Of a stretch of DNA of 21,541 nucleotides, positions 3,776 through 16,474 are shown in pieces (position 1 is the first letter of the stretch; every line of letters starts with the position of its first letter). Below the pieces are notes generated by a model, which saw nothing but the letters and a program-made list of their open reading frames with translations, had not been told where the DNA came from and made no database searches. Source of the stretch: a virus (lineage: Duplodnaviria; Heunggongvirae; Uroviricota; Caudoviricetes). Location: IMG/VR virus record IMGVR_UViG_2526164662_000046; one strand, written 5' to 3'. Position numbers and translations under genes: made by a program.

Positions 3776-5402
<1,627 letters not shown>

Positions 5403-5439
5403 GTAAGCGTGCAGCAAGAACCGTATTGACGGGGATGTG

Positions 5440-6978
5440 TTATTCAGTCGGCAGTGCTACGCGCCAGGGGAGCAGTTCGCCGACCCGGTTTATCGGCCAG
5501 TCGGCTATGACGTCAAGGACATAGCGGAGGTAGCTTTCTGGCTCCACTCCGTTCAGTTTGCACGTCCCGATCAGGCTGTACAGCAGCGCTCCCCGCTCTC
5601 CTCCATGATCCGAACCGAAGAACAGGTAGTTTTTGCGGCCCAGACTGACCATCCGCAACGCATTTTCAGCGATGTTATTGTCCGCCTCAGCCCAGCCATC
5701 ATCTGCATAGTACGTCAGCGCCGGCCACTGGTTCAGGGCGTATGCGAACGCTTTCGCCAGTTCTGAGTGTCGCGACAGGGTTTTCATCTTTTCACGCAGC
5801 CAGCTTTCCAGGGATTTCAGCAGCGGTTTCGTTTTCAACTGACGTTCGGCAAGGCGCTGCTCCGCCGTCATTCCCCTTATCTCTGCCTCGATGGCGTACA
5901 GTTCGCCGATCCGTTTCAGCGCTTCCTCCGTCAGGGCTGACGGGGTGCGAACGTGCACATCGTGGATTTTACGGCGGGCGTGAGCCCAACAGGCGGCTTC
6001 CGTTATCCGGCCATCCCGGTACAGCTCGTTGAACCCGGCGTATGCATCCGCCTGCAGTACACCACTGAACCCCGCAAGATGGGTCTGCGGATGGATGCCT
6101 TTTCTGTCCGGGCTGTAAGCGAACAACACCGCCGGCGCCAGCGTTGACCCGGCGTTACGGTCGTCACGAACGTAGGTCCATAACCGCCCGGTCTTCGTTT
6201 TCTTATTGCCTGGCAACAGCACCGGGACAGGCGTGTCATCAGCATGGAGCTTACCGTCAGTCAGCACATAGTCCTGAAGCGCTTCTTCCAGCGGTGACAG
6301 TAGCCGGCAGCATGCATCCACCCAGCCCGACAGCAGTGAACGACTCAGCTCCACGCCCTGGCGGCCGTACATTTCAGACTGGCGGTACAGCGGGGTGTGC
6401 TCTGCATACTTTGAGATCAGCACGCGGGCCAGCAGCCCCGGTCCTGCGATACCCCGCTCGATGGGCCGTGAAGGCGCGGGGGCCTGCACGATGGCATCGC
6501 ACTGAGTACAGGCATGCTTTTCACGTACAGTCCGGATAACCCGGAAGGCGCTGCGCATCAACTCCAGCTGTTCGGCGGCATCCTCACCCAGATAGCTCAG
6601 TGAGCCTCCACATTCCGGGCAGCATGATGCTGCCGGCAGCAGCCGTTTTTCATCGCGGGGGAGTGATTCGGGGAACGGTTTGCGGGTGCGGGTTTGACGC
6701 AGCGGGCGCTGCACGGCCGGGTCGTCAACCCGACCGGTAAGGGTATCACTTTCTTTCTGAAGTGCCTTCAGGTCAGCTTCCATCTGTGCGATACGACGGG
6801 AGACTTTTTCGGAGCGGCTGCCGAAGTTCATCCGGCGCAGCTTATCCAGCTGTGCCTGCAGATGGTCTATTTCGCGTTCACGCTCGTTCAGCTTTTCCAG
6901 CAGGGCACGGTTCAGCGCCTCCTGTTCGGCAAGGAGACGTTTCAGTGCATTGATATCGTCAGGAAGTGAGCTGCTCAT
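5440..6978 (-). CDS. IS66-family transposase (TnpC/Orf3)
   Basis: 512-aa ORF with N-terminal coiled-coil/leucine-zipper ([38 protein letters not shown]) and CPECGG / CTQCD zinc-finger-like motifs typical of IS66 transposases. Confidence 0.85.
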
Positions 6979-7026
6979 ACCGGGTATATTACCAGGCTCA
7001 TTCAGCGTCGACCAGGATAAAGAGGC

Positions 7027-7374
7027 TTACAACATAGTCAGGGACGTAAGCAGTCTTTTAGGCTGCCGCCAGTCGATACCTTCCAGCAGCATCGCCAGCT
7101 GTGCCGGTGTGAGGAACACTTTGCCATCCCGGGCTGACGGCCAGGCGAAGCGGCCGCGCTCCAGCCGTTTGGTCAGCAGACACAGTCCATCGCCGGTAGA
7201 CCAGAGGAGCTTTACCTGACTGCCATTACGCCCACGGAAGATAAAAACGTGACCTGACATCGGATCGTCTTTCAGCGTCGTCTGCACCTTTGCCGCCAGG
7301 CCGTTGAAGCCGTTTCTCATATCGGTGATGCCAGCGACCAGCCAGATCTTTGTCCCTGATGGTAATGGGATCAA
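7027..7374 (-). CDS. IS66-family accessory protein TnpB (Orf2)
   Basis: 115 aa; position and size match IS66 Orf2; start overlaps the tnpA stop (ATGA at 7371-7374). Confidence 0.8.
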   Translation of the reverse strand: MIPLPSGTKIWLVAGITDMRNGFNGLAAKVQTTLKDDPMSGHVFIFRGRNGSQVKLLWSTGDGLCLLTKRLERGRFAWPSARDGKVFLTPAQLAMLLEGIDWRQPKRLLTSLTML

Positions 7375-7775
7375 CGTTTGAGCTCCCGTATCAGCAGGTT
7401 CAGGATATTTTCGCTGATGGCACCATTCAGACGGAGTGATCCGTGCCGGAACGTCACTTCACAGCTGATATTGAGTGATTCAGGTGTCGCAGCAGCTACA
7501 GGTTGTGACCGGGGGGAGGTTGTAGGGACAACATCTTCGGCATCAAGTGTTATCGGGAGCAGCTCAGGCACGTTGTTTTCTGTTGTTGAAGGAGGACGTA
7601 GTTTTCCTTCGCGCCAGTACTGGCGCCACTTGAACAGCAAATTATCGTTGATCCCATGCTCACGAGCGAGTTGCGCTACGGAGATCTCTGGTCGATGCGA
7701 GAGTTCAACCATTTTGATTTTGAACTCAACGGGATAATTAGGGCTTTTTTTACGCACTGCGGTTAATGATTTCAT
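7371..7775 (-). CDS. IS66-family accessory protein TnpA (Orf1)
   Basis: 134 aa with HTH-like region (ISVAQLAREHGINDNLLFKWRQ); first ORF inside the IS end. Confidence 0.8.
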   Translation of the reverse strand: MKSLTAVRKKSPNYPVEFKIKMVELSHRPEISVAQLAREHGINDNLLFKWRQYWREGKLRPPSTTENNVPELLPITLDAEDVVPTTSPRSQPVAAATPESLNISCEVTFRHGSLRLNGAISENILNLLIRELKR

Positions 7776-7856
7776 GGATAGCGTCCACCATATTTGGTGT
7801 CCACTATTCTCTCAGGAATTTCAGGATCTGCCAGACGGTGCTGAGACGACGCTTAC

Positions 7857-7864
7857 TAGTGTTT
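7857..7864. repeat. 8-bp target-site duplication (TAGTGTTT), right copy of IS66-family insertion
   Basis: Identical to 5395-5402; immediately abuts the IS end at 7856. Confidence 0.85.
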
Positions 7865-8251
7865 CACCACTTCGCGCAATACATTATAAAATCCCGTACC
7901 TGAACAATGCTCACAGCGAGCCTTACTTGCCGCAGACCTGGAGTAATCAGCAAAGGCAAAATTCACGAGGTAAGGAATAATCTGTAACCGGATTTCTTCA
8001 CTCAATTTGTTCAATGTCGGGTTATCCAGTGCCATCGCGTAATTTAGCAGGCCTTCAATCGCAAACTGAGCGTCCTGAACACCAACTTTTGCCAGAAATA
8101 AGGCCAACCCAAGTGGTGCTTTCGACTGCACCATCCCCTGCGCTGCCATTACATCCGTAATTGTTAAACAACCGGTGCCTGTCGCTGGAGCGTCATCGCT
8201 CAATTTTGGAGATTTTGGGGAGTAATATTTTGGTAAGGCTTCAAGGTTCAT
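7857..8251 (-). pseudogene. quuQ: Q antiterminator, N-terminal fragment
   Basis: ATG at 8249-8251 (MNLEALPKYYSPK...) with GGAGA Shine-Dalgarno; frame ends ...YNVLREVVKH then a stop created by the IS junction. Removing the IS and one TAGTGTTT copy restores ...VVKH-YRRGESVIK in frame. The ORF track extends to 8281, which corresponds to a TTG codon. Confidence 0.8.
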
Positions 8252-8264
8252 GCTCGTTCTCCAC

Positions 8265-9314
8265 TTACGCCAGTACGCCAATTGCCAGCGCGCGATCGAT
8301 AAAACGAAATATCAGCTCCAGTTGGGAGCCATACTTCTCTTCAAATGCCACTGTATCCGTATGCAGCTCGTTGTGATGCTTTCTGCACAAAGGCAACACA
8401 AAGAGATCATGTGCTTTTGTTCCCATTCCGCCCTGCCCGTGACCAATCAGATGATGCGGATCGTCGGCTGGCATACCGCAGCAAGCACACGGCTGTGTCT
8501 TAACCCAACGTGTGTATTTCTCCTTAACCCAGCGGCGACGTTTAGGCAGCTTCATGAAAGATTCCGGAGACTCTGGATCAACGGTGATGCTTACCACCGT
8601 CTTTTCCTGTGGTGTTTTTTGTTGCTGGTGGGCGTAAGGCAACGGTGCAAGATTTTTTGTGCGTTGTTTCAATATGCTGGTGGCGGTCTGCTCTCCCGGT
8701 ACGATGTCGCTTTCGCGGTACACCGAGCAGATTTTTTCCGCTGGTAATCCCAGCGAACGACGCGATACAGCCTCAGGTAGTGCATCCACCACCTGATTGC
8801 AGACCGCCCACCAGGATAATTCAGCCAAAGATAATTCCCGCTCCTGCGTACCGCTTATTGCGTGACGGATGACGTCAATCACCCATGCTGTCAGATTTTG
8901 TTGAGCAAGCAGCTCCAGTGATTCCGATGTCTGGTCACGCAGTTGGTTGTCGCAGTGCCAACACAACACCATTGCGCCGGTACCATAACGGTGAATGACT
9001 GTTTCAGAGTGATGGTAATCGCCATTAGCCCACTGGCAGGATGTAACATGACGTAATAGCCAGTCAGACAATGCGCCAACACCGCCAGCAGCACGAATCA
9101 CCCGTTCGTTACTAAAAAACGGCAGCAATGTTTTGTCTTCCGCCAGCGACTGGCGAACGGCAGGAACGACTCCGGATGGCAGATTACGCATGCTTTTTGG
9201 TTCCGGTTCCACCAGCACTCGAGGATTATGAAATATCTGTATGGATTCACGGCCCGGCTTAAGGACCACCAGCCCAAGCTCAGGCACCAGAACAGGTCTA
9301 AGTAATACCCGCAC
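8265..9314 (-). CDS. ydfU: YdfU-like prophage protein (DUF968-type) with Cys/His-rich HNH-like motif
   Basis: 349 aa from GTG 9312-9314 preceded by GGAGG (the ORF track extends to 9353); Cys/His cluster CACCGMPADDPHHLIGHGQGGMGTKAHDLFVLPLCRKHHNELH; stop overlaps the Q start; synteny rem-ydfU-Q as in Qin (recalled). Confidence 0.75.
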   Translation of the reverse strand: MRVLLRPVLVPELGLVVLKPGRESIQIFHNPRVLVEPEPKSMRNLPSGVVPAVRQSLAEDKTLLPFFSNERVIRAAGGVGALSDWLLRHVTSCQWANGDYHHSETVIHRYGTGAMVLCWHCDNQLRDQTSESLELLAQQNLTAWVIDVIRHAISGTQERELSLAELSWWAVCNQVVDALPEAVSRRSLGLPAEKICSVYRESDIVPGEQTATSILKQRTKNLAPLPYAHQQQKTPQEKTVVSITVDPESPESFMKLPKRRRWVKEKYTRWVKTQPCACCGMPADDPHHLIGHGQGGMGTKAHDLFVLPLCRKHHNELHTDTVAFEEKYGSQLELIFRFIDRALAIGVLA

Positions 9315-9315
9315 G

Positions 9316-9594
9316 TTACCTCCAGATCCGTTGCTGGAAAGTGCGGGACGCACGTGGTGGGCGTTCGGAGTAAGGCAATCTGACTGAGATTATCCAGTGA
9401 CGGTAGTCGAGGCTAAGGGCTTTCTTAACCTCGTATCCGCGCCTGCGGTAACACTGAATTATCCATTCAGCCTGCTCTTCAGTGCATGGAGGGTGTTGGA
9501 ACCATTCAGACTTGAATGCGTGAGAATACCGCTCGTGCGTGCAGACAAGAACGGGCGAATTATCAGAATTGTAATATTTTACGTTGCGTGCCAT
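9316..9594 (-). CDS. rem: Small prophage protein (Rem-like)
   Basis: 92-aa ORF, ATG 9592-9594 with GGAGA Shine-Dalgarno; stop 2 nt before the ydfU start; assigned by position. Confidence 0.6.
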   Translation of the reverse strand: MARNVKYYNSDNSPVLVCTHERYSHAFKSEWFQHPPCTEEQAEWIIQCYRRRGYEVKKALSLDYRHWIISVRLPYSERPPRASRTFQQRIWR

Positions 9595-9660
9595 CGGTTT
9601 TCTCCGGTGGCACGGTGTTACTCAGCGGGAGTTCAGCCCCGCGCAAGATTGTAGATGAGT

Positions 9661-9912
9661 TTATTCTTCTGCAAAAGCTGAAAAGCCTGCTTTTATTCCG
9701 ATCTCTTTCAGTGCCTGTAATGAAGTGACAAACTCACCTTCGCGCAAGATAAATCCGTCTGTCACTCGACCATCCACAAAATTAATTAACGCAGCCCCAT
9801 TCTTTCGCAAACACATAATGCGGTAATGACTAACAAAATTTCCATTTTCAACGCACACAGCATAGAGGCCATCTTCACAAAAAATTTTACGCAGTTCTTC
9901 GATGTTCATCAT
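9661..9912 (-). CDS. Hypothetical protein, 83 aa
   Basis: ATGATG start with GGAAGGA Shine-Dalgarno 5 nt upstream; MMNIEELRKIFCEDGLYAVCVENGNFVSHYRIMCLRKNGAALINFVDGRVTDGFILREGEFVTSLQALKEIGIKAGFSAFAEE; no family recognised. Confidence 0.6.
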   Translation of the reverse strand: MMNIEELRKIFCEDGLYAVCVENGNFVSHYRIMCLRKNGAALINFVDGRVTDGFILREGEFVTSLQALKEIGIKAGFSAFAEE

Positions 9913-10030
9913 CAGAATCCTTCCGGATAATTAGCTCTCCCCTTTAAGGGACCATCCCTCTTATCCCTGCGCGCTACTTAAGTATTTTTGATTCTATTCC
10001 GGCACCGTCCAGAACTTCAAACGCGTTGAA

Positions 10031-10060
10031 AATAAAAACAAAAACCCGCCGAAGCGGGTT
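10031..10060 (-). terminator. Rho-independent terminator downstream of hokD
   Basis: Stem aacccgc (10043-10049) / gcgggtt (10054-10060), loop cgaa; on minus it is followed by a U-run (complement of aataaaaacaaa 10031-10042). Confidence 0.7.
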
Positions 10061-10128
10061 AAGTGCGGGTGCGTTGAGGATGCCTGCCACATCAGAGGTG
10101 GCGAGGGATTTCTCCCTCGCCGGGTTTC

Positions 10129-10284
10129 TTACTCCTCAGGTTCGTAAGCTGTGAAGACAGCGACCTCCGTCTGGCCGGTTCGGATTCGTACCTCGCAGAG
10201 GTCTTTCCTCGTTACCAGTGCCGTCACTATGACGGTTAAACAGATGACGATCAGGGCGATTAACATCGCCTTTTGCTGCTTCAT
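10129..10284 (-). CDS. hokD: Hok/Gef-family membrane toxin (type I toxin)
   Basis: 51 aa MKQQKAMLIALIVICLTVIVTALVTRKDLCEVRIRTGQTEVAVFTAYEPEE; ATG 10282-10284 with AGGAGA Shine-Dalgarno; single transmembrane helix plus conserved C-terminal periplasmic tail. Confidence 0.9.
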   Translation of the reverse strand: MKQQKAMLIALIVICLTVIVTALVTRKDLCEVRIRTGQTEVAVFTAYEPEE

Positions 10285-10958
10285 AGCCTGCTTCTCCTTG
10301 CCTTTCGGCACGTAAGAGGCTAACCTACATATGTCTAGCATGAAATTGGCCTCAGATTAATGTTAAGCGTCTTGCAGGACGCGTAATGTTAACTGGGGCT
10401 TTTCTCTATCTGCCGTTGGTGTTCATGCCCGAGGCAGATAGCCTCAAGCACCCGCAGCCATTCTACTTAACTACCGTTACCTCGCCAATGTGAAATCAGT
10501 CAGAAAGGCGATCCATAAGAACAATAGCAAGACAATAAATCGCCATTACAGCCGTAATAGCCAGCGCACATTTGAGAACCAGCACCACAACCTCCTGTAT
10601 TGGACGTAGACCAGTCCTGATGAATATGAGGCTGTCTCGTCAGTGATTCAATACAACTATTGGGTATAGTTTCTCTGATTTTTTCTGTGGAAATGGGGCA
10701 CAACCACTAGTCACCACCAGCACTTCTTTTAATACGCAAAGTCCGACACAAGCTAACTTTCTAGTCCGCTTTGAGCGAAAAACAGCCATAATTTAGTGCC
10801 ACGTATATAATGATAGAGCTATTCAAGCTAGCAATTCACATGTAAAAATTCAGAGGGTAGAAGCACATAGTTATAAATGTTGGCTCCATCGACAAATTGC
10901 GGTCTCAAGTACATTTATTAATGTTGCCCCCGCATTAACAAATCATCAAGGTGACGAC

Positions 10959-12746
10959 ATGGACGATATTAATATCAGCCTCGACGAACTTAACACTATT
11001 GATTTATCCCCCTTAATCCAGAGTAAGCTGCCAGTTACCTGCTTTGATATCACAAAGTATCTTTCTAGCCTAGGTGATGGAAGAGCGGAGATAAGACTGC
11101 TAACCCATATTTGCGGTTTTCACTTTCGTCCCGAAAATCCACAGGTACCATTTGGTCCGTGCTTTCAAAGCAGCCAAGGTAGATCTGCAATTCCGGATGA
11201 CATTAACGGGTTGTCGCTGGAGGTACTTTCTCAATTTTGCCCGACGATAGAGCTACCCGAACTTCAAGCTCGTATTGCTGATACACTTTGGGTTCGTAAA
11301 ATTGGTGGAATCCGTTTTCCTTTGCTGGCAGTCCGTGCTTATTATGCGTCCAGTATAGCTATTATGACATCGCAAGGGACGTGGGTTAGTGCTTTAGAAC
11401 GCCTAGAGCGTGCGCTTAGGCTGTGTTGTTTTTTTCGAAAGCATACTGATTTCAGGGATGAATTTGATCAGCTTTCGGCACATCTACTAGCAGAGTATGA
11501 ACGTACCAGAGAACAAGGCGATTCACCTTATCCGCTGCGACTCCTGCAACTCGATATCGACTGTAAAGTGAGTGAGCCATCTTTTATTGCCCAGGAACTC
11601 CTGTTTCTGACAAAAAACTATCTGGCTCAAAAATTATTTTCATTTGCCGTCGATGCCTGTAAAACCGCAATCCCGATTGCGAATAGGTGCTGTGACAGAG
11701 ATACACAGTTTGAATTCTGGCGGCTTCTTGCCGATACACATCTGGAAGAGTCAAAATTCCAAGATGGCGGTATGATTTCGGCAGCCTGCATGCAGAATGC
11801 TATTGAAGCACTGGCTAATATTCCAGGAACCCGAATAGAACGTCTTGCGCTGTATGAAGAAATGCGTGATTACCAAATCGAATCCCGTCACCAGATGTCT
11901 ATCCTTCAGTCTCCCCCTCAAGATATTAGTGAGATTGTCCATCAAGCCAAGAGTCGGGTAGTCGGAAGAGATTTGTTTGATATGGTTTTCAGACTTGCGA
12001 TGCTGGTCTGTCGGCCAACCAGCATTGAGAGACTTAAGGCTCAAGCAATAGAACAAAAGGCCAACAGCATAGCTTGGATGTTTGGATCAACACATATTGA
12101 TCATGAGGGAATGACACTTGCTCGCATACCCGCAGGATTGGGGATTGATGATGCAAATGGGGCAGTTATTTGGCCCATAATGATGACGAGAATGCGTATC
12201 GACCATGAGTTGGCAGTAGCTGGGCAAATTATTCCTGCTACAGATGAGATCACAATGAAATATCCAATCTCGGAGGCGTTTTTTCGCGATATGTTCATCA
12301 ATCATCCCTTCATCCCGTTTGGGCATGAAGAGTTTTTCATCAAGGGTATGGTTTGCGGTTTCAATGGAGATTTTATGACGGCATGCCACGTGTTGATTCC
12401 CCAGATCGAAAATAGTCTGAGATATGTGGCTAAAATTAAAGGTGAGGAACCATCGCAGCTTCACGGGGACGGTTCGCAAGAGCGAAATGGACTCAAGGGA
12501 TTACTAGATAATCCACTGATTATTGAAGCTTTCGGCGTAGACATAATTGGCAATCTTCAGGCCTTACTGGTAGATAAAATCTATGGTGATTTACGAAATC
12601 AACTAGCTCACGGATATGTGCCTGCCGGTTACTACAATCAACCTCCCTGCATTTTTGCATGGTGGCTTGTATTGCACATTCTAATGAACCCTACGGCGAG
12701 ATACTGGCAAGCCACTTATGGCCAAGAGAGTGAGGCTCAGACTTAA
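10959..12746 (+). CDS. Large hypothetical protein (595 aa), candidate anti-phage/abortive-infection effector with HEPN-like R-x4-H-G motif
   Basis: ATG 10959 with AAGGTGA 5 nt upstream; uninterrupted 595-codon frame; opposite strand to all surrounding phage operons; rare codons (AGA, ATA, CTA) in the first 150 nt; C-terminal motif DLRNQLAHGY (R546...H551, nt 12594-12614) matching the HEPN R-x4-6-H signature; no homologue I recognise from the K-12 Qin prophage. Confidence 0.8.
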   Translation: MDDINISLDELNTIDLSPLIQSKLPVTCFDITKYLSSLGDGRAEIRLLTHICGFHFRPENPQVPFGPCFQSSQGRSAIPDDINGLSLEVLSQFCPTIELPELQARIADTLWVRKIGGIRFPLLAVRAYYASSIAIMTSQGTWVSALERLERALRLCCFFRKHTDFRDEFDQLSAHLLAEYERTREQGDSPYPLRLLQLDIDCKVSEPSFIAQELLFLTKNYLAQKLFSFAVDACKTAIPIANRCCDRDTQFEFWRLLADTHLEESKFQDGGMISAACMQNAIEALANIPGTRIERLALYEEMRDYQIESRHQMSILQSPPQDISEIVHQAKSRVVGRDLFDMVFRLAMLVCRPTSIERLKAQAIEQKANSIAWMFGSTHIDHEGMTLARIPAGLGIDDANGAVIWPIMMTRMRIDHELAVAGQIIPATDEITMKYPISEAFFRDMFINHPFIPFGHEEFFIKGMVCGFNGDFMTACHVLIPQIENSLRYVAKIKGEEPSQLHGDGSQERNGLKGLLDNPLIIEAFGVDIIGNLQALLVDKIYGDLRNQLAHGYVPAGYYNQPPCIFAWWLVLHILMNPTARYWQATYGQESEAQT

Positions 12747-12843
12747 AGTGAATAAGTTTACGAAGTTGGCACTTCCGGATGCATGTCCATATGAGTTGAG
12801 GCGATTTGGTTAATAAGGTTGAGTGCTGCTGAAATTATTCGAT

Positions 12844-12867
12844 GTCCGCTTTTGGCACAAAGCGGAC
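12844..12867. terminator. Perfect 9-bp stem-loop in convergent intergenic region (possible terminator)
   Basis: gtccgcttt (12844-12852) / aaagcggac (12859-12867) with 6-nt loop; lies between the stops of the 595-aa gene and the 133-aa minus-strand gene; no clear U-run on either strand, so terminator function is uncertain. Confidence 0.35.
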
Positions 12868-12964
12868 AACCACGCCAGATCTACCCTGTGCCATGAAAAA
12901 TGAGAATGTCAATTCACTCCTGAACTAATGCTTTTTAATCTAGTAACGTCTAAAATACCTAACA

Positions 12965-13366
12965 TTATCCCTGATAAAATGCCAGTATGCGCTGCATAAC
13001 TTCACTCATCCGGCACTCGCGACAGATTATGTTTAGGCGACTGTCGTAGCGACGTATTTCTCCATCAGGTAACGACCAGATAAGGTCCGGATCAACCACA
13101 GCTGTTTTCTTCACCTTTGCCCTCGAGAGTTTTTTGCGGGCGTTTTGCCAGTCCTTACGCGCCTGTTCAGACGGGAATAACCCGTAGCCGGAGTTGTATA
13201 CATCGCCACTGGCTACCAGCTCTCTGGCAAGAACGCTCATCAGATATCTAGTCGCACCTGTTTTAGCTTCCAGTTGCCGTAACGTCTCACGACCGCTCTG
13301 GCGCACGAGTTCCACCACCTGCCCTTTAATTTTTTCCCGCTCTTCTTGTGTAAAAACTTTTGCCAC
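12965..13366 (-). CDS. Hypothetical protein, 133 aa, last gene of the replication-side operon
   Basis: ORF 41 nt downstream of the initiator gene on the same strand; basic, with a possible winged-helix segment (TLRQLEAKTGATRYLMSVLAREL); no family recognised. Confidence 0.55.
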   Translation of the reverse strand: MAKVFTQEEREKIKGQVVELVRQSGRETLRQLEAKTGATRYLMSVLARELVASGDVYNSGYGLFPSEQARKDWQNARKKLSRAKVKKTAVVDPDLIWSLPDGEIRRYDSRLNIICRECRMSEVMQRILAFYQG

Positions 13367-13406
13367 AAGTCCCCCTTAAAATTACCTCATGACCTGAAAT
13401 CAAAAC

Positions 13407-14426
13407 TTATCCTCTGAAACCAGGCGGAATTTCTGTATCCGGTTCAGAAATATGATTAACACAACGCTGTACAGGTGAACGCCCCAGGCGGATGACCAGT
13501 TCGTCCCATTTTTCGCGGAGCTTTGACGGGCTCATGAAGTTTTTTACCCAGAATGGATCCCGCTGTACCCGACCAAACATTTCACAAATTTGTCTGTGGC
13601 TTCTGCCATCCAGCATCCGCATTGTGCGCACATCATTGGCCCAGACAGTCCAGTTAGGCTCTTTTGGTCGCATGATCTCGCCATCATCACTGGCGGCCTG
13701 TTCGTAGAGACCCACGATCCGCCCCCATATCCACTGCGCACACGCCAGATCCTCCTGGCTACCCCACTGGCGTTTTTTCGCACTAAACACAACTGCGCCA
13801 GGGTGCCGGATTAAAAAATCCTGTTCAGCCGTCTGCGGGTCCGGTTGCGAAGCTTCCGGACGAAAAGTGTTTTTATTCTCTGTAGTAATCTCTGTTGTAT
13901 TCTCTGTAGGATCATCGGGCCATTTTGACCCGATGACATTGGGTCGTTTTGAACCAATGGAGCGTTTCATTTTGACCTCTTCCATCGTGTCATTTTGACC
14001 TGATGGAGCGGCGCATTCTGAACCGATGGATTCGCTCAATTTGCCATCATCTAAAAGCTCGCTCCCATAGTTAATCGTGTAGAAATTGGTCATATCGCGC
14101 TTTGATTTATTGAGCTTTTCACAACGCAAAAGCCCCAGCGTTTTCAGACTTGCAAACGCGCGCTTTAACGTTGACTCTGACCAGAATGGGAACTGTTCCA
14201 GCCATTGTTCCGTTGTGTTGTAAATCCAGCGAACACCATCACATTCCATGCCGGAATTGGTATCTCTCAACCAGTAATGCAACTGCTGCAACACAATGGC
14301 TTCATTTAAGCCAATCTTCATCGCAAGCTGTGTGTTTATAACCAGTGGGCGTTCAGCAAAAAGAAGGCTCATAATTCCATCCAGCTTTTTGTTGGTATTG
14401 CTGTCGATACGCAAGTTTGAAAGCAA
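13407..14426 (-). CDS. Putative phage replication initiator (lambda O-like functional analogue) with internal origin iterons
   Basis: 339-aa ORF; N-terminal HTH-like region; the central coding region contains an array of about 23-24-bp direct repeats plus an adjacent AT-rich tract, the arrangement seen at lambda ori inside gene O. Start uncertain (alternatives at 14372 or 14321). Confidence 0.6.
   Translation of the reverse strand: MLSNLRIDSNTNKKLDGIMSLLFAERPLVINTQLAMKIGLNEAIVLQQLHYWLRDTNSGMECDGVRWIYNTTEQWLEQFPFWSESTLKRAFASLKTLGLLRCEKLNKSKRDMTNFYTINYGSELLDDGKLSESIGSECAAPSGQNDTMEEVKMKRSIGSKRPNVIGSKWPDDPTENTTEITTENKNTFRPEASQPDPQTAEQDFLIRHPGAVVFSAKKRQWGSQEDLACAQWIWGRIVGLYEQAASDDGEIMRPKEPNWTVWANDVRTMRMLDGRSHRQICEMFGRVQRDPFWVKNFMSPSKLREKWDELVIRLGRSPVQRCVNHISEPDTEIPPGFRG
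13921..14060. repeat. Iteron-like direct repeat array (5-6 units, about 23-24 bp period), putative prophage replication origin
   Basis: Units beginning 13921 (cattttgacccgatga), 13945 (cgttttgaaccaatgga), 13968 (cattttgacctcttcca), 13991 (cattttgacctgatgga), 14015 (cattctgaaccgatgga), 14038 (caatttgccatcatcta); flanking AT-rich tract 13865-13915 with ttctctgtag repeated. Confidence 0.6.
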
Positions 14427-14874
14427 TTGCTTTTTCTATAAGTTCGTCAGTTTCACGATCCACTACGGCAGGATCAGCAAAAAGCAGTCCGGACTCCACC
14501 ACATCGCCATATTCTTTGTTTAACCCGGCGATCATGTACGTGATGCTTTTTCCGTCACTAATTTCACGATACAACCTGAAATCATTAATCCGGATAGCCT
14601 CCATAATTGCAGGCACTAGCGCCGTGAACTTTTCACGCTTATCCCTGGTGTCGATAGCCTTCCAGCGTTCGAATATCTTCACTCGATTAACGCCAAGCGC
14701 TCGCTGATCAACCGCGCCACCTTCATCTGTGACACGCTGAACATCGATGTTCGGGCGCTCTTTCAAAGCCCAGAATGCTTCAGTGATTAATATCGTCGCC
14801 TGCTCCTGTGTCATTCCTGGTCGACATATCCAGGCATCCAGAGCCTCACGAGCCTGTTCAGGAGTGATTTTCAT
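14353..14874 (-). CDS. YdaT-like prophage protein (CII-position gene), 173 aa
   Basis: Start ATG 14872-14874 overlaps the dicC stop by 17 nt (translational coupling); segment KREKFTALVPAIMEAIRINDFRLYREISDG resembles Rac YdaT as I recall it. Assignment is tentative. Confidence 0.55.
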   Translation of the reverse strand: MKITPEQAREALDAWICRPGMTQEQATILITEAFWALKERPNIDVQRVTDEGGAVDQRALGVNRVKIFERWKAIDTRDKREKFTALVPAIMEAIRINDFRLYREISDGKSITYMIAGLNKEYGDVVESGLLFADPAVVDRETDELIEKAIAFKLAYRQQYQQKAGWNYEPSFC

Positions 14875-15088
14875 TGTTCAACCGCCCCGCCCGCTTCGTC
14901 TTACGATATTCGTCATAAACCTTGGGATCATACAGAAGCTCCCCGCCAGATGCCTCCTGTAGACGCATCGCGCGACCTTCAGGAACCAGTATCCCCCAAG
15001 CAGCAACACTTGCCAGTCTCACTCCTGCGGCATTGGCAAGCTTTGTTTTGCTGCCAAAAAAAGTAATTGCGTCAACTTTAAGCATCAA
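14858..15088 (-). CDS. dicC: Cro-like transcriptional regulator DicC
   Basis: 76 aa MMLKVDAITFFGSKTKLANAAGVRLASVAAWGILVPEGRAMRLQEASGGELLYDPKVYDEYRKTKRAGRLNNENHS; divergent from dicA across a 77-bp operator region; matches K-12 DicC in length and recalled sequence. Confidence 0.8.
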   Translation of the reverse strand: MMLKVDAITFFGSKTKLANAAGVRLASVAAWGILVPEGRAMRLQEASGGELLYDPKVYDEYRKTKRAGRLNNENHS

Positions 15089-15099
15089 AGCCCCCTCTT

Positions 15100-15115
15100 G
15101 TTAGACTTTTCTAAC
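15100..15115. promoter_or_regulatory. Palindromic operator in dicC-dicA divergent promoter region
   Basis: GTTAGA-cttt-TCTAAC, perfect 6-bp arms with 4-bp spacer, centred between the dicC and dicA starts; same half-site as the palindrome at 15609-15628. Confidence 0.6.
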
Positions 15116-15165
15116 ATTATTGTGCGCGGGATATCTAAGTCAAGAAAAATTAGAATTACCTAACT

Positions 15166-15573
15166 ATGGATACAAGAACCCTAGGCCAGCGAGTTCTGGC
15201 GCGACGAAAAGAATTACGCTTAACACAACGAGAAGCTGCGCGCCTCGCTGGAGTTGCTCACGTCACAATTTCACAATGGGAAAGAGACGAAACCCAGCCA
15301 GTCGGAAAACGATTGTTTGCTTTAGCGGATGCTCTGAAGTGCTCACCTACATGGCTAATGTTTGGTGACGAAGACAAGGCACCAGTGCCTGCACAAGAAC
15401 TTCATGTGGAAACAGAGCTAACTCCCAACCACAAAGAATTGATCGAATTATTCGATGCTCTTCCATCTTCCGAGCAGGAAGCCTTGCTGTCTGAAATGCG
15501 CGCAAGAGTAGAAAACTTCAACAAACTCTTCGAAGAAATGCTTAAAGCGCGTAAAAATAAATCAATAAAATAA
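15166..15573 (+). CDS. dicA: C2/CI-like HTH repressor DicA
   Basis: 135 aa; HTH (LTQREAARLAGVAHVTISQWERDETQP); C-terminal ...EMRARVENFNKLFEEMLKARKNK matches K-12 DicA as recalled. Confidence 0.85.
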   Translation: MDTRTLGQRVLARRKELRLTQREAARLAGVAHVTISQWERDETQPVGKRLFALADALKCSPTWLMFGDEDKAPVPAQELHVETELTPNHKELIELFDALPSSEQEALLSEMRARVENFNKLFEEMLKARKNKSIK

Positions 15574-15608
15574 CATTCTTTTCAAGTGATTAGTTGCGCC
15601 CACTCTTT

Positions 15609-15741: not shown

Positions 15742-15897
15742 ATGGATACTATCGATCTTGGCAACAGCGAATCTCTGGTATGTGGCGTGTTCCCCAACCA
15801 GGACGGCACGTTCACCGCGATGACGTATACCAAAAGCAAAACGTTTAAAACCGAAAATGGTGCCCGTCGCTGGCTGGAAAGAAACTCAGGTGAGTGA
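15742..15897 (+). CDS. ydfA: Small prophage protein YdfA
   Basis: 51 aa MDTIDLGNSESLVCGVFPNQDGTFTAMTYTKSKTFKTENGARRWLERNSGE; ATG 15742 with GAGGT Shine-Dalgarno; first gene of the dicB operon. Confidence 0.8.
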   Translation: MDTIDLGNSESLVCGVFPNQDGTFTAMTYTKSKTFKTENGARRWLERNSGE

Positions 15898-15898
15898 T

Positions 15899-16474
15899 AT
15901 GGATTTCGACACAATCATGGAAAAGGCTTACGAAGAATACTTCGAAGGCCTTGCCGAAGGCGAAGAAGCTCTCAGCTTCAGTGAGTTTAAACAGGCACTC
16001 AGAATAAGAATGTGCTCTCACAATGACGCGGAGCACAAATATGAGAAGCAAAATCAGACCGCAGAAAATTTTGTTCTGGAACCCGGAGAAACGCTTTTCA
16101 AAATTCCCGTTACGTGCCCCATTTGCGGTTTTACATCAGAAGAACTTGACGACTCCTGTAACAATCAGGAAACAACCAAGTATGTCGAAGATGATACCGA
16201 GTGCGCACGAAGAACGATTATATCCACGAGTCCAAACTCCAGGGCCAATAAATCTCACTTTGAGAGGGTGATTAATCCACTCCCCCAAACCAATAAAAAA
16301 GATGCCGGAGGACAAAAAACCCAATGGAACAACGGGATATCTGTCAAAAAAAGACGTTCCATTAAAGACAAACAACGCAGCGCCAACAACTGTAAGCGCT
16401 TTATACCAGTAATCAATTTTCATGTTCTTAAGCGGATTTATTGGTGGTTGCGACATTGCTTAATGAATCCTTAA
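15899..16474 (+). CDS. YdfB/YdfC-like ORF (N-terminal about 100 aa credible; C-terminal extension doubtful)
   Basis: ATG 15899 overlaps the ydfA stop; MDFDTIMEKAYEEYFEGLAEGEEALSFSEFKQALRIRMCSHNDA... with C-x2-C (TCPICG); the last about 100 codons are Lys/Arg/Asn-rich, use rare codons (AGA, AGG, ATA, CGA) and overlap a better-looking minus-strand ORF. Confidence 0.45.
   Translation: MDFDTIMEKAYEEYFEGLAEGEEALSFSEFKQALRIRMCSHNDAEHKYEKQNQTAENFVLEPGETLFKIPVTCPICGFTSEELDDSCNNQETTKYVEDDTECARRTIISTSPNSRANKSHFERVINPLPQTNKKDAGGQKTQWNNGISVKKRRSIKDKQRSANNCKRFIPVINFHVLKRIYWWLRHCLMNP
16136..16456 (-). CDS. Candidate small membrane protein (95-106 aa), antisense within the dicB operon
   Basis: Hydrophobic segments (ALTVVGAALFVF, LGFLSSGIFFIGLG, ALGIIFDILGCFLIVTG); AAGGA about 11 nt upstream of ATG 16454-16456 (alternative start MKIDYW); codon usage looks more coding-like than the overlapping plus-strand frame. 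Not confirmed. Confidence 0.4.
   Translation of the reverse strand: MSQPPINPLKNMKIDYWYKALTVVGAALFVFNGTSFFDRYPVVPLGFLSSGIFFIGLGEWINHPLKVRFIGPGVWTRGYNRSSCALGIIFDILGCFLIVTGVVKFF

What the first reader, a model, noticed from the sequence alone, without database searches (positions are those of the whole stretch)
10285..13406. Cargo locus replaces relBE-side genes and the replication module appears to lack a helicase loader
From hokD rightwards K-12 Qin has relE, relB, ydfV, flxA (recalled). Here I find no RelE/RelB-like ORF; instead there is about 670 bp of non-coding sequence, the 595-aa plus-strand gene, a 9-bp perfect hairpin (12844-12867) and a 133-aa minus-strand ORF. The replication operon (dicC, YdaT-like, initiator, 133-aa ORF) contains no recognisable DnaC/P-like helicase-loader or helicase gene, suggesting a deletion or replacement at the site where the cargo entered. 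The exact homology breakpoints cannot be set by eye.
Basis: partly seen in the sequence, partly recalled or inferred. Interest (0 to 1): 0.45.

Follow-up and report, generated by a model that had tools for sequence, protein, structure and literature searches.

The report
Prophage defence-gene slot; loader-less replication module
This stretch of a Qin-like E. coli prophage is a standard swap-in slot for accessory genes, here holding a candidate anti-phage RNase, and the missing helicase-loader gene is the normal state of this replication module in working phages, not damage left by the cargo.

Summary
The sequence features are real, but the proposed history is not supported. Window 10764-12867 is a self-contained cassette in a fixed slot between the hok/sok locus and the ren-like gene lygF (the 133-aa ORF, DUF977).

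The 595-aa protein has DUF7380, TPR-like repeats and a DUF4209/HEPN domain. It matches PADLOC candidate PDC-S39 (E 2e-102) and keeps an invariant Rx4H motif. The same slot carries the validated defence gene PD-T7-1 in phage mEp460_ev081, and at least 38 other cassettes elsewhere, many of them defence genes.

relBE-ydfV-flxA is a separate, K-12-type insertion at the hokD start. K-12 Qin is the copy that lost its replication genes.

The loader-less order Cro, cII-like, initiator, lygF is identical in phage isolates mEp460_ev081, HannyBb and PhiR42_1. The initiator gene contains iterons and ends in the DnaT C-terminal tail (IPPGFRG), so it probably uses host DnaB/DnaC.

Whether P1/P2 mediate cassette exchange is open. 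The same palindrome is REP-like in Alphaproteobacteria.

The parts
10129..10284 (-). hokD toxin ORF. The mok-type overlapping ORF runs on to 10341.
   Evidence: Pfam HOK_GEF, E 2.9e-23. Annotated as hokD in ATCC 25922.
10279..10453 (-). hok mRNA leader with the sok antisense region. It is intact here and displaced by relBE in K-12 Qin.
   Evidence: Rfam RF01794 sok, 112.7 bits against a gathering score of 59. Conserved in all compared phages up to about 10470.
10454..10763 (.). Backbone spacer between the hok leader and P1. It includes a terminator-like hairpin at 10542-10561 (-).
   Evidence: Shared with mEp460_ev081, RM11911 and UMNK88, and with HannyBb up to 10628. Terminator scan.
10764..10787 (.). 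P1, the left boundary palindrome (GTCCGCTTT-GAGCGA-AAAACAGCC). Its inner arm is degenerate in this copy.
   Evidence: Homology to other cargo alleles ends at 10778-10785, and homology to the Enterobacter copy of the cassette starts at 10764. The family was found in 120 viral contigs. This copy does not fold.
10788..10958 (+). Cassette-borne upstream region of the cargo gene: TATAAT at 10806-10811 and the ribosome-binding site AAGGTGA at 10948-10954.
   Evidence: Read directly from the sequence. The consensus promoter scan found no strong site here, so the promoter is inferred.
10959..12746 (+). Cargo gene: a 595-aa protein with DUF7380, TPR-like repeats and a DUF4209 (HEPN) domain, matching PADLOC candidate PDC-S39. 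The Rx4H motif is R546-H551.
12844..12867 (.). P2, the right boundary palindrome (GTCCGCTTT-TGGCAC-AAAGCGGAC).
   Evidence: Homology to other cargo alleles resumes at 12836-12844, and the Enterobacter cassette copy ends at 12867. dG -10.5, z -5.3. It lies 93-101 nt from lygF in every surveyed contig where lygF adjoins the array.
12965..13366 (-). lygF, a DUF977 Ren-like protein. This is the '133-aa ORF' and the last gene of the early-right operon before the slot.
   Evidence: Pfam DUF977, E 6e-27. phrog_142 'Ren-like exclusion protein', E 1.9e-44.
13407..14372 (-). O-like replication initiator of 321 aa as annotated (the mechanical ORF extends to 14426). The last 21 codons (13407-13469) encode the DnaT-type tail ...SEPDTEIPPGFRG.
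   Evidence: phrog_391 'replication initiation O-like', E 1.9e-90. The tail matches DnaT positions 159-179. 4257 homologues were found.
13874..14028 (.). Putative origin inside the initiator gene: three 12-nt repeats (13874-13909) and five ~23-nt palindromic iterons (13913, 13937, 13960, 13983, 14006).
   Evidence: the repeat finder families D1-D3. The position corresponds to the disordered linker of the protein model.
14353..14874 (-). YdaT-family / cII-like gene.
   Evidence: Pfam YdaT_toxin. phrog_163 'CII-like transcriptional activator', E 2.3e-40.
14858..15088 (-). Cro/DicC-like regulator.
   Evidence: Pfam P22_Cro, E 2.7e-11.
15166..15573 (+). DicA/CI-like repressor.
   Evidence: Pfam HTH_3, E 1.5e-14.

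Best explanation
Window 10285-13406 is the accessory-gene slot of a Qin/mEp460-type lambdoid prophage. It lies between the ren-like gene lygF, which ends the early-right replication operon, and the hok/sok locus. Two 24-nt palindromes, P1 and P2, bound the slot.

Here the slot holds one self-contained cassette, 10764-12867, with its own upstream region. The cassette encodes a 595-aa protein with an N-terminal DUF7380 and TPR-like helical part, inferred to be a sensor. Its C-terminal HEPN (DUF4209) domain is inferred to be a metal-independent RNase.

The most likely function is a prophage-carried, single-gene abortive-infection defence. In that model a phage cue relieves autoinhibition, and the Rx4H site cleaves host or phage RNA.

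The replication module is complete as an 'initiator-solo' type. The O-like protein would bind the iterons inside its own gene. Its C-terminal domain and DnaT-type tail (IPPGFRG-COOH) would bring in the host helicase-loading machinery, either DnaB-DnaC or the PriA/PriB primosome.

Shown: the anatomy, the breakpoints, the family matches, the conservation, and the presence of the same module in phage isolates. Inferred: defence activity, RNase activity, the sensor role, and what the tail binds.
For: Slot and cassette:
- Breakpoints against four other cargo alleles fall inside P1 (10778-10785) and at P2 (12836-12844). The Enterobacter copy of the cassette matches exactly 10764-12867 (alignments).
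- In 120 viral contigs there were 176 such palindromes, against 4 in a shuffled control. All but three had one of two loop types. They define 67 P1..P2 cassettes in 38 clusters.
- In 31 contigs the order is Hok, 466-481 nt, P1 ... P2, 93-101 nt, LygF.

Defence context:
- The allele in mEp460_ev081 is PD-T7-1 (E 4e-157), which was experimentally selected as a defence system (PMC9519451).
- The neighbour in the Enterobacter prophage is a ThsB-like TIR protein (E 1.8e-128).
- Other cargoes match NsnA, PD-T4-2_A, a defence-type reverse transcriptase, a Pycsar cyclase with its 2TM effector, GmrSD, SIR2 and other HEPN families.

Cargo protein:
- PDC-S39, E 2e-102. DUF4209 is assigned to the HEPN superfamily. 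RNQLAH is invariant. The model is confident.
- The cassette is in 153 of 5426 E. coli genomes, in nearly all at >=99% identity, always chromosomal.

Replication:
- The same loader-less gene order occurs in mEp460_ev081, HannyBb and PhiR42_1. Homologous initiators in SfIV and mEp460_4F5 also have no loader annotated downstream. No loader or helicase is annotated anywhere in HannyBb.
- The iterons are intact.
- The tail is shared with E. coli DnaT, Rac YdaU, a 90-aa DnaT-domain ORF and the unrelated UMNK88 initiator.
- Of 48 tail-bearing ORFs, 39 have no DnaC-like gene within 1.5 kb downstream.
Against: - No experiment on PDC-S39 was found; only inventories mention it.
- The promoter scan found no strong promoter upstream of the gene.
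- Some slot cargoes are not defence genes: LysR, MFS, SDR, HAD and NUDIX families.
- Several genomes carry IS2/IS3 insertions inside the gene. That fits a costly gene but proves nothing.
- The partner of the DnaT tail is not stated in the papers I read.
- The initiator model is poor, pLDDT 55.
- Relatives exist in which the same C-terminal domain is followed by a phage DnaC-like gene.
- This window's copy of the prophage has its Q gene cut by an IS66-family element. Whether this particular copy is functional is therefore unknown.
Confidence: 0.7

Rival explanations
1. One reading: the cargo entered by replacing relBE-side genes and took the helicase-loader gene with it. On this view the replication module is crippled and the prophage is a decaying remnant.
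For: - No loader gene is present.
- A mosaic relative has ydaV (DnaC-like) and ydaW between an initiator with the same C-terminal domain and lygF.
- This window's Q gene is interrupted by IS elements, so the copy is decaying elsewhere.
Against: - The cassette boundaries (10764 and 12867) lie outside lygF and the initiator.
- The initiator-lygF junction is the same in three phage isolates with different cargo.
- The same cassette coexists with a DnaC-like loader in an Enterobacter prophage.
- relBE-flxA is an independent insertion at the hokD start, and K-12 is the deleted form.
Confidence: 0.05
2. The 595-aa protein is not an anti-phage defence. It could be another kind of moron: an RNA-processing or regulatory factor that serves the prophage or host, a toxin involved in prophage maintenance, or a counter-defence gene.
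For: - No experimental validation was found.
- Slot cargo includes non-defence genes.
- DUF4209 relatives exist in eukaryotes (the C6orf70 family), where a non-defence role is proposed.
- The Vibrio cholerae homologue sits in a small chromosomal islet without recognisable defence neighbours.
Against: - It gives a full-length match to a defence-island-derived candidate model.
- Its alleles and neighbours are validated or well-established defence genes.
- The catalytic HEPN motif is invariant across Enterobacterales, Vibrio, Pseudomonas and cyanobacteria.
- It is patchy and near-clonal in E. coli, as mobile defence genes are.
Confidence: 0.2
3. P1 and P2 are only REP-like structural hairpins, acting as 3'-end or insulator elements. 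On this view cargo turnover happens by ordinary homologous recombination in the conserved flanking genes, and the palindromes merely mark where homology stops.
For: - The same 24-mer family occurs as dense intergenic doublets next to ordinary genes in Xanthobacteraceae genomes.
- P2 sits between the converging 3' ends of lygF and the cargo gene.
- No recombinase is consistently adjacent, and there are no target-site duplications (sequences).
Against: - Breakpoints of five alleles fall within the 24-nt elements themselves.
- The whole P1..P2 unit moved between unrelated backbones and occurs in both orientations: in Enterobacter L007, and as the K-12 flxA cassette.
- Adjacent cassettes are joined by a fixed 16-18-nt P2-P1 spacer.
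- The outer arm and loop are conserved, while the inner arm varies with the cassette.
Confidence: 0.4
4. The initiator does not contact DnaC or DnaB. Instead its DnaT-type tail plugs into the PriA/PriB restart primosome, so phage replication starts through the replication-restart pathway.
For: - The tail is nearly identical to that of DnaT.
- In the preprimosome structure the DnaT C-terminal domain docks on PriA through a conserved hydrophobic surface (PMC13377028).
Against: - The paper does not say that residues 160-179 make the contact.
- In Rac and in the Enterobacter prophage the tail-bearing protein is followed directly by a DnaC-like gene, as dnaT is followed by dnaC in E. coli. That pattern points to a DnaC-type partner.
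Confidence: 0.25

Closest known systems
Prophage defence hotspots (P2/P4 hotspots; lambdoid morons in the nin region)
   Same: A fixed position between conserved phage genes holds interchangeable accessory genes, often single and mostly anti-phage (PMC9519451; PMC9122126 listed). The slot lies just downstream of a ren-like gene, which is where the lambda nin region lies (lambda gene order from my own knowledge).
   Different: The location is lygF to hok/sok in Qin/mEp460-type phages. The slot is bounded by a specific pair of 24-nt palindromes, and cassettes can be stacked with a fixed 16-18-nt joint. I found no description of this in the searchable literature.
PADLOC candidate PDC-S39 and single-protein HEPN defence or abortive-infection nucleases (ApeA, AbiD/AbiF, RnlA and PrrC, named from my own knowledge)
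   Same: It gives a full-length hit to the PDC-S39 models. It has a C-terminal HEPN-type Rx4H motif preceded by a large helical region that could act as a sensor.
   Different: PDC-S39 is a prediction with no published test that I could find. Its N-terminal DUF7380 and TPR-like architecture is not that of the named nucleases. The fold of the HEPN part could not be confirmed here.
Lambda O/P, Rac YdaU/YdaV and P22 gp18/gp12 replication modules
   Same: The module sits after cro and a cII-like gene. The iterons lie inside the initiator gene, as in lambda O (the lambda comparison is from my own knowledge).
   Different: There is no P, DnaC-like or DnaB-like partner gene. The initiator carries the C-terminal tail of host DnaT, as Rac YdaU does. 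In Rac that tail comes with a phage DnaC-like gene.
E. coli DnaT (primosomal protein I)
   Same: The last 20 residues are nearly identical: RCVNHISEPDTEIPPGFRG against [20 protein letters not shown].
   Different: The rest of the protein is not detectably DnaT. There is no Pfam DnaT hit, and the NCBIfam score is 16 bits against a cut-off of 201. RAST-style annotations of 'Primosomal protein I' rest on the tail alone.
REP/BIME palindromic units, and the promoter-stem-loop cassettes (PeSLs) of T4-type phages (named from my own knowledge)
   Same: Short conserved palindromes in intergenic DNA flank variable genes and coincide with recombination joints. In Alphaproteobacteria the same 24-mer behaves like a REP doublet.
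   Different: The sequence is unrelated to the E. coli REP consensus. Only two loop types occur in enterobacterial prophages, in a fixed P1...P2 arrangement around cassettes.

Membership tests
PADLOC PDC-S39 (phage defence candidate) | Significant, near full-length match to the PDC-S39 profile HMMs. | tested here: met
   PDLC05012, E 2.1e-102, residues 43-581 matching profile positions 54-602 of 615. PDLC05011, E 7.3e-102.
Validated anti-phage defence system | Experimental protection against phage when expressed. | not testable with these tools
   The only papers that mention PDC-S39 are inventories.
HEPN superfamily | Conserved Rx4-6H catalytic motif. | tested here: met
   RNQLAH at 546-551. 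R546 and H551 are invariant and N547 is conserved in >=90% of 38 homologues sharing 25-97% identity.
HEPN superfamily | Four-helix up-and-down bundle fold similar to solved HEPN domains. | tested here: inconclusive
hok/sok type I toxin-antitoxin | A Hok-family toxin ORF together with the sok antisense and mok leader. | tested here: met
   HOK_GEF, E 2.9e-23. Rfam sok, 112.7 bits against a gathering score of 59.
relBE type II toxin-antitoxin (K-12 Qin arrangement) | RelE and RelB homologues next to hokD. | tested here: not met
   tblastn with K-12 RelE, RelB, YdfV and FlxA found no hit in the window or in the ATCC 25922 prophage.
Lambda-type O/P replication module | An initiator whose gene contains the iteron origin. 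| tested here: met
   phrog_391, E 1.9e-90. Five ~23-nt iterons and three 12-nt repeats at 13874-14028.
Lambda-type O/P replication module | An adjacent helicase-loader or helicase gene (P, DnaC-like or DnaB-like). | tested here: not met
   No family hit. tblastn with two DnaC-like proteins found nothing. Lambda P and DnaB were not searched by sequence, only through the annotations and family scans.
DnaT (PF17948 / NF002770) | A profile match above the curated cut-off over the DnaT domain. | tested here: not met
   No Pfam DnaT hit. NF002770 scored 16.2 bits against a cut-off of 201, on the last 20 residues only.
Integron attC or Xer dif-like recombination sites (considered for P1/P2) | attC: R''/L''...L'/R' boxes with a GTTRRRY core and an intI gene nearby. 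dif-like: an 11-6-11 site resembling the XerC/XerD arms. | tested here: not met
   P1 and P2 are 9-6-9 palindromes, GTCCGCTTT-N6-AAAGCGGAC, with no GTTRRRY core. The consensus comparison was made from memory of the attC and dif consensus sequences. No integrase lies next to the slot.
REP/BIME-like repeats (considered for P1/P2) | A multicopy intergenic palindrome, often in doublets, next to unrelated genes across a genome. | tested here: inconclusive
   Met in Xanthobacteraceae MAGs. In this window there are only two copies, both at the slot boundaries. Genome-wide copy number in E. coli was not measured.

The most novel reading that the evidence does not exclude
P1 and P2 may be more than punctuation. 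They could be the recombination sites of a cassette-exchange system.

The proposal is a 9-6-9 palindrome family with heterospecific 6-nt spacers: GAGCGA at one end of each cassette and TGGCAC at the other. Such spacers would allow P1xP1 and P2xP2 exchange between co-resident phages while preventing P1xP2 deletion. This would move defence genes as discrete units between unrelated lambdoid backbones, in either orientation, and stack them with a fixed 16-18-nt joint.

The family would be related to a REP-like repeat that is abundant in soil Alphaproteobacteria.
Probability: 0.25. Interest if true: 0.75.

Novelty: new variant of a known kind. Interest (0 to 1): 0.45.

Why it matters
The main finding is ordinary in kind. 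Prophages are known reservoirs of defence genes held at fixed hotspots, and lambdoid replication modules are known to be mosaic.

Three things make the locus useful:
- It gives PDC-S39, an untested HEPN candidate found from Enterobacterales to cyanobacteria, a clean natural context. Its direct allele is the validated gene PD-T7-1, which makes it a good candidate for testing.
- It defines a lambdoid hotspot (lygF to hok) with base-pair boundaries, P1 and P2. These could be used to harvest cargo genes from genomes and to test how cassettes are exchanged.
- It shows that the C-terminal tail of host DnaT is a portable module on at least three phage initiator bodies with little or no other similarity to DnaT or to each other (the window type with its SfIV-like relatives, the UMNK88 type and the YdaU type). 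These occur with or without a phage DnaC. How the primosome recruits DnaB/DnaC is stated to be unknown (PMC13377028). The phage proteins offer simple genetic handles on that question.

Tried and rejected
- Empty site. A query made of the two flanks joined together found no genome with the slot empty. It found 116 genomes with small (0.8-1.0 kb) alternative cargoes.
- hhalign of the family alignment against two HEPN cargo proteins aligned only the RNxxxH motif and was not significant.
- Initiator structure. The AF2 model from 15 close homologues was poor (pLDDT 55), so I did not fold-search it.
- PDB sequence search with the initiator. Apart from the DnaT tail, it returned only a chance-level match to YteR.
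- Intrinsic-terminator reading of P1/P2. Rejected as the sole explanation, because no T-run follows either stem on either strand.
- RNA-structure reading of P1/P2. The A/G variation would preserve G-U pairs on one strand, but that strand differs between copies, and other variable positions break pairing.
- IS200/IS605-type ends. Considered and set aside, because the shared cassette begins and ends exactly at the hairpin feet and no transposase is present.
- Target-site duplications. None were seen at the cassette ends.
- Literature searches for 'PPGFRG', LygF, DnaT with lambdoid phages, and lambdoid hotspots next to hok returned nothing relevant.
- The 15-mer scan of viral contigs is not informative as a raw count, since about 100 hits could arise by chance (my rough estimate). 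Only the structured follow-up carries weight: the palindrome completes in most hits, a partner is present, and the context is fixed.


Full report
**What the window is.** The region 9500-15600 is 99.9% identical to a prophage of E. coli ATCC 25922 and about 140 other complete genomes. In ATCC 25922 this prophage sits next to rspB/ynfA. It carries integrase, excisionase, exonuclease, dicB, a DicA-like repressor, a Cro-like gene and a YdaT/cII-like gene. These are followed by a 'hypothetical' 321-aa protein, a DUF977 gene and a DUF4209 gene on the other strand. Then come hokD, rem, ydfU, the antiterminator ydfT, lysis genes and a full set of head and tail genes.

**Observation check.**
- The hairpin at 12844-12867 folds at -10.5 kcal/mol, z -5.3.
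- tblastn with K-12 RelE, RelB, YdfV and FlxA, and with two DnaC-like proteins and YdaW, finds nothing in the window or in the 38-kb ATCC 25922 stretch.
- The 674 nt called non-coding contains the hok leader with sok (Rfam, 112.7 bits, 10279-10453). It also contains a terminator-like hairpin, a boundary palindrome (below) and the upstream region of the cargo gene.

**The genes.**
- The 133-aa ORF is DUF977. It matches phrog_142, 'Ren-like exclusion protein', and is annotated lygF in phage records.
- The gene before it matches phrog_391, 'replication initiation O-like', at E 1.9e-90.
- That initiator gene contains five ~23-nt palindromic iterons and three 12-nt repeats at 13874-14028. The AF2 model is disordered over exactly that part of the protein.
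- So the operon reads Cro, cII-like, O-like, Ren-like, which is the lambda order without P (the lambda order is from my own knowledge).

**Is the missing loader a deletion?** The phage database answers this.
- mEp460_ev081, HannyBb (isolated from bird faeces) and PhiR42_1 (host ECOR13) carry the same four genes at 96-98% identity, with nothing between the initiator and lygF.
- The whole HannyBb genome has no annotated helicase or loader.
- More distant initiators of the family (46-68% identity) in Shigella phage SfIV and in mEp460_4F5 are also followed by small non-loader genes.
- The module with a loader is a different cassette. Rac has ydaU, ydaV (DnaC-like), ydaW and lygF.
- One mosaic type (L051/L064) joins an initiator with the same C-terminal ~150 residues to ydaV-ydaW-lygF. 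Both states therefore exist in nature, and the direction of change is unknown.
- In a sample of 48 ORFs ending in PPGFRG, 39 had no DnaC-like gene within 1.5 kb downstream. The sample is biased, because it was collected for another purpose.

**How the module may work.**
- The last 20 residues of the initiator, RCVNHISEPDTEIPPGFRG, match the C-terminus of E. coli DnaT. This is why RAST-style annotation calls the protein 'Primosomal protein I'.
- The same tail ends Rac YdaU and a 90-aa DnaT-domain ORF in an Enterobacter prophage.
- The UMNK88 initiator has an unrelated body, but its last 20 residues are identical. DNA homology runs from P2 through lygF into the last 21 codons of the initiator.
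- SfIV-type proteins end in ..QIPAGFRG.
- The tail is therefore a portable module. In E. coli, Rac and the Enterobacter prophage, the tail-bearing gene is followed by a DnaC-type gene. In the window type the only DnaC available is the host's.
- I infer that the initiator recruits host DnaB-DnaC, or the PriA/PriB primosome. The papers I read say the DnaB/DnaC recruitment step by DnaT is unresolved, and they do not assign a partner to residues 160-179.

**The cargo and its boundaries.** The table gives where homology to the window stops on the left and resumes on the right (blastn).

| Compared locus | Left homology ends | Right homology resumes |
|---|---|---|
| mEp460_ev081 | 10778 | 12844 |
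| RM11911 | 10785 | 12836 |
| UMNK88 | 10785 | 12842 |
| HannyBb | 10628 | 12969 |
| PhiR42_1 | 10473 | 12961 |
| Rac | 10470 | 12958 |

- An Enterobacter hormaechei prophage with a Rac-type replication module carries the same gene at 97% protein identity. Its DNA homology to the window is exactly 10764-12867.
- At those two positions lie related 24-nt palindromes. P1 is GTCCGCTTT-GAGCGA-AAAACAGCC. P2 is GTCCGCTTT-TGGCAC-AAAGCGGAC.
- The same pair flanks the other alleles. In the Enterobacter prophage it flanks two adjacent cassettes, a ThsB-like TIR gene and the DUF4209 gene, which lie 18 nt apart.

**Survey of the palindromes.**
- A scan of viral contigs for the P1 15-mer gave 120 loci.
- In them, 176 elements fit the stem pattern, against 4 in shuffled sequence. 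All but three have one of the two loops.
- I counted 67 P1..P2 cassettes in 38 sequence clusters, 0.75-4.2 kb long. Neighbouring cassettes are joined by a 16-18-nt spacer.
- In 31 loci the order is Hok, 466-481 nt, P1 ... P2, 93-101 nt, LygF. About 17 loci have other backbones.
- The outer arm and the loop are nearly invariant. The inner arm varies at the same positions in P1 and in the reverse complement of P2.

**What the slot carries.**
- The mEp460_ev081 allele is PD-T7-1 (E 4e-157), a defence system found by functional selection (PMC9519451).
- Representatives of the other clusters match NsnA, PD-T4-2_A, type II restriction enzymes, defence-type reverse transcriptases, a Pycsar cyclase with a 2TM effector, PDC-S06, PDC-S15, GmrSD, SIR2, NYN, two HEPN families and an adenosine deaminase.
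- They also match LysR, MFS, SDR, HAD and NUDIX proteins.
- The slot is therefore a moron and defence hotspot.

**The 595-aa protein.**
- It has DUF7380 (residues 4-166) and DUF4209 (residues 484-573) by Pfam.
- It matches the PDC-S39 models over nearly its full length.
- DUF4209 was assigned to the HEPN superfamily by Anantharaman et al. (PMC3710099).
- Homologues of about 600 aa occur in Enterobacterales, Vibrio, Aeromonas, Pseudomonas and cyanobacteria.
- In 38 of them, R546 and H551 of RNQLAH, and Q482, E484, S486 and R488, are invariant.
- The cassette is in 153 of 5426 complete E. coli genomes, in nearly all at >=99% identity, single-copy and chromosomal. Several copies are split by IS2/IS3 insertions.
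- No experimental paper on PDC-S39 was found.
- I therefore commit to a single-gene abortive-infection RNase with a TPR-like sensor as the most likely mechanism. That mechanism is inferred.

**relBE and K-12.**
- K-12 Qin reads hokD, relE, relB, ydfV, flxA, ydfW, ydfX, dicC.
- Its homology to the window stops at 10298, at the start of the hokD ORF. It resumes at 14595, inside the cII-like gene. K-12 therefore lacks the hok leader, the slot, lygF, the initiator and the 3' part of the cII-like gene.
- PhiR42_1 shows an intermediate state: hok, relE, relB, ydfV, flxA, an IS element, then a displaced copy of the hok leader (window 10283-10473). Further on it has the methyltransferase gene, lygF and the initiator.
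- In both, the ydfV-flxA segment is bracketed by P2-type and P1-type elements in inverted order. flxA thus looks like another cassette of the same system, in the opposite orientation.
- The K-12 junction occurs in 1172 genomes and the window-type hok leader with its flank in 1455.

**An unexpected wider distribution.**
- The exact P2 pattern has 22 fixed bases and should occur less than 0.1 times by chance (my estimate) in the 596-Gb collection. It hit at least 120 stretches.
- Many hits are in Enterobacterales. Many others are in Xanthobacteraceae, Pseudolabrys and Hyphomicrobiales MAGs.
- There the same stems also carry a third loop, TGACCC. The elements form doublets 21 or 67 nt apart. They lie between ordinary genes such as ABC and TctC substrate-binding proteins, patatin, oxidoreductases and a transporter.
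- In those genomes the family looks REP-like. A few hits are in MAGs labelled as other phyla, which may be binning errors.
- This weakens a phage-specific att-site reading. It leaves open whether the palindromes act as hairpin insulators, as recombination anchors, or both.

**State of this copy.** In the window the antiterminator Q gene is truncated to 141 codons by an IS66-family element (5440-7775), and an IS3-family transposase lies at about 3950-5170. The ATCC 25922 copy has an intact ydfT. This particular prophage is therefore probably late-gene defective, for reasons unrelated to the finding.

**Verdict.**
Its causal story, that cargo replaced relBE and removed the loader, is not supported.
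- The locus is a new variant of a known kind, a prophage defence hotspot with a candidate HEPN defence gene.
- Two side observations deserve follow-up: the P1/P2 boundary palindromes and the portable DnaT-type tail.

Noticed in passing
window 13407-13469 (-); also L005:5985-6773, L007:3888-4160, L012:4544-5614, L013:1944-2885: The tail IP[PA]GFRG-COOH is shared by host DnaT and at least three phage initiator bodies that show little or no other similarity to DnaT or to each other. These are the window type with its SfIV-like relatives, the UMNK88 type and the Rac YdaU type (also seen as a separate 90-aa DnaT-domain ORF). The UMNK88 initiator shares only its last 20 residues with the window protein, at 100% identity. 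The tail occurs with and without a phage DnaC-like gene downstream.
   Followed up: partly
window 10764-10787 and 12844-12867; L007 6469, 7801-7824, 7843, 9886; L015 4982 and 5973; L136-L255: A 24-nt palindrome family, GTCCGCTTT-N6-AAAGCGGAC, marks cassette boundaries in enterobacterial prophages, with loops GAGCGA and TGGCAC. The same stems, with a third loop TGACCC, form dense REP-like doublets between ordinary genes in Xanthobacteraceae and Pseudolabrys genomes.
   Followed up: partly
window 3950-7775 and 7856-8281: An IS66-family element (transposase at 5440-6978, TnpB-like at 7027-7374, HTH ORF at 7371-7775) truncates the antiterminator Q gene ydfT to 141 codons. An IS3-family transposase (rve domain, 4120-5166) lies next to it. 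This GC-rich block (up to 0.63) is absent from the ATCC 25922 copy.
   Followed up: partly
E. coli genomes H17, H19, H25, H30 and H80: In several genomes the DUF4209 gene is split by an IS2 or IS3 insertion and annotated as separate DUF7380 and DUF4209 proteins. This may be a sign that the gene is costly.
   Followed up: no
window 10039-10120 (-): There is a weak isrK-like Rfam match (25.7 bits, below the gathering score of 50, E 0.017) just downstream of hokD. It overlaps a terminator-like hairpin at 10100-10121.
   Followed up: no
L008-L010 8001-10440 (Vibrio cholerae): The V. cholerae homologue (45% identity) forms a two-gene islet with an unannotated 160-aa ORF. The islet lies between a TauE-family gene and carB, in several assemblies.
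   Followed up: no
L003 4613-5299 (HannyBb): In HannyBb the stretch between lygF and hok holds a small methyltransferase ORF and a QueH (epoxyqueuosine reductase) homologue (E 1.9e-65). A variant perfect palindrome, GTCTGCTTT-TGATGC-AAAGCAGAC, lies at 5363-5386.
   Followed up: no
window 15857-16474 (+): A 205-aa ORF lies between the DicA-like repressor and dicB, with no Pfam match. ATCC 25922 has ydfA and a ydfB fragment annotated at the start of this stretch, so this ORF may not be a real gene.
   Followed up: no
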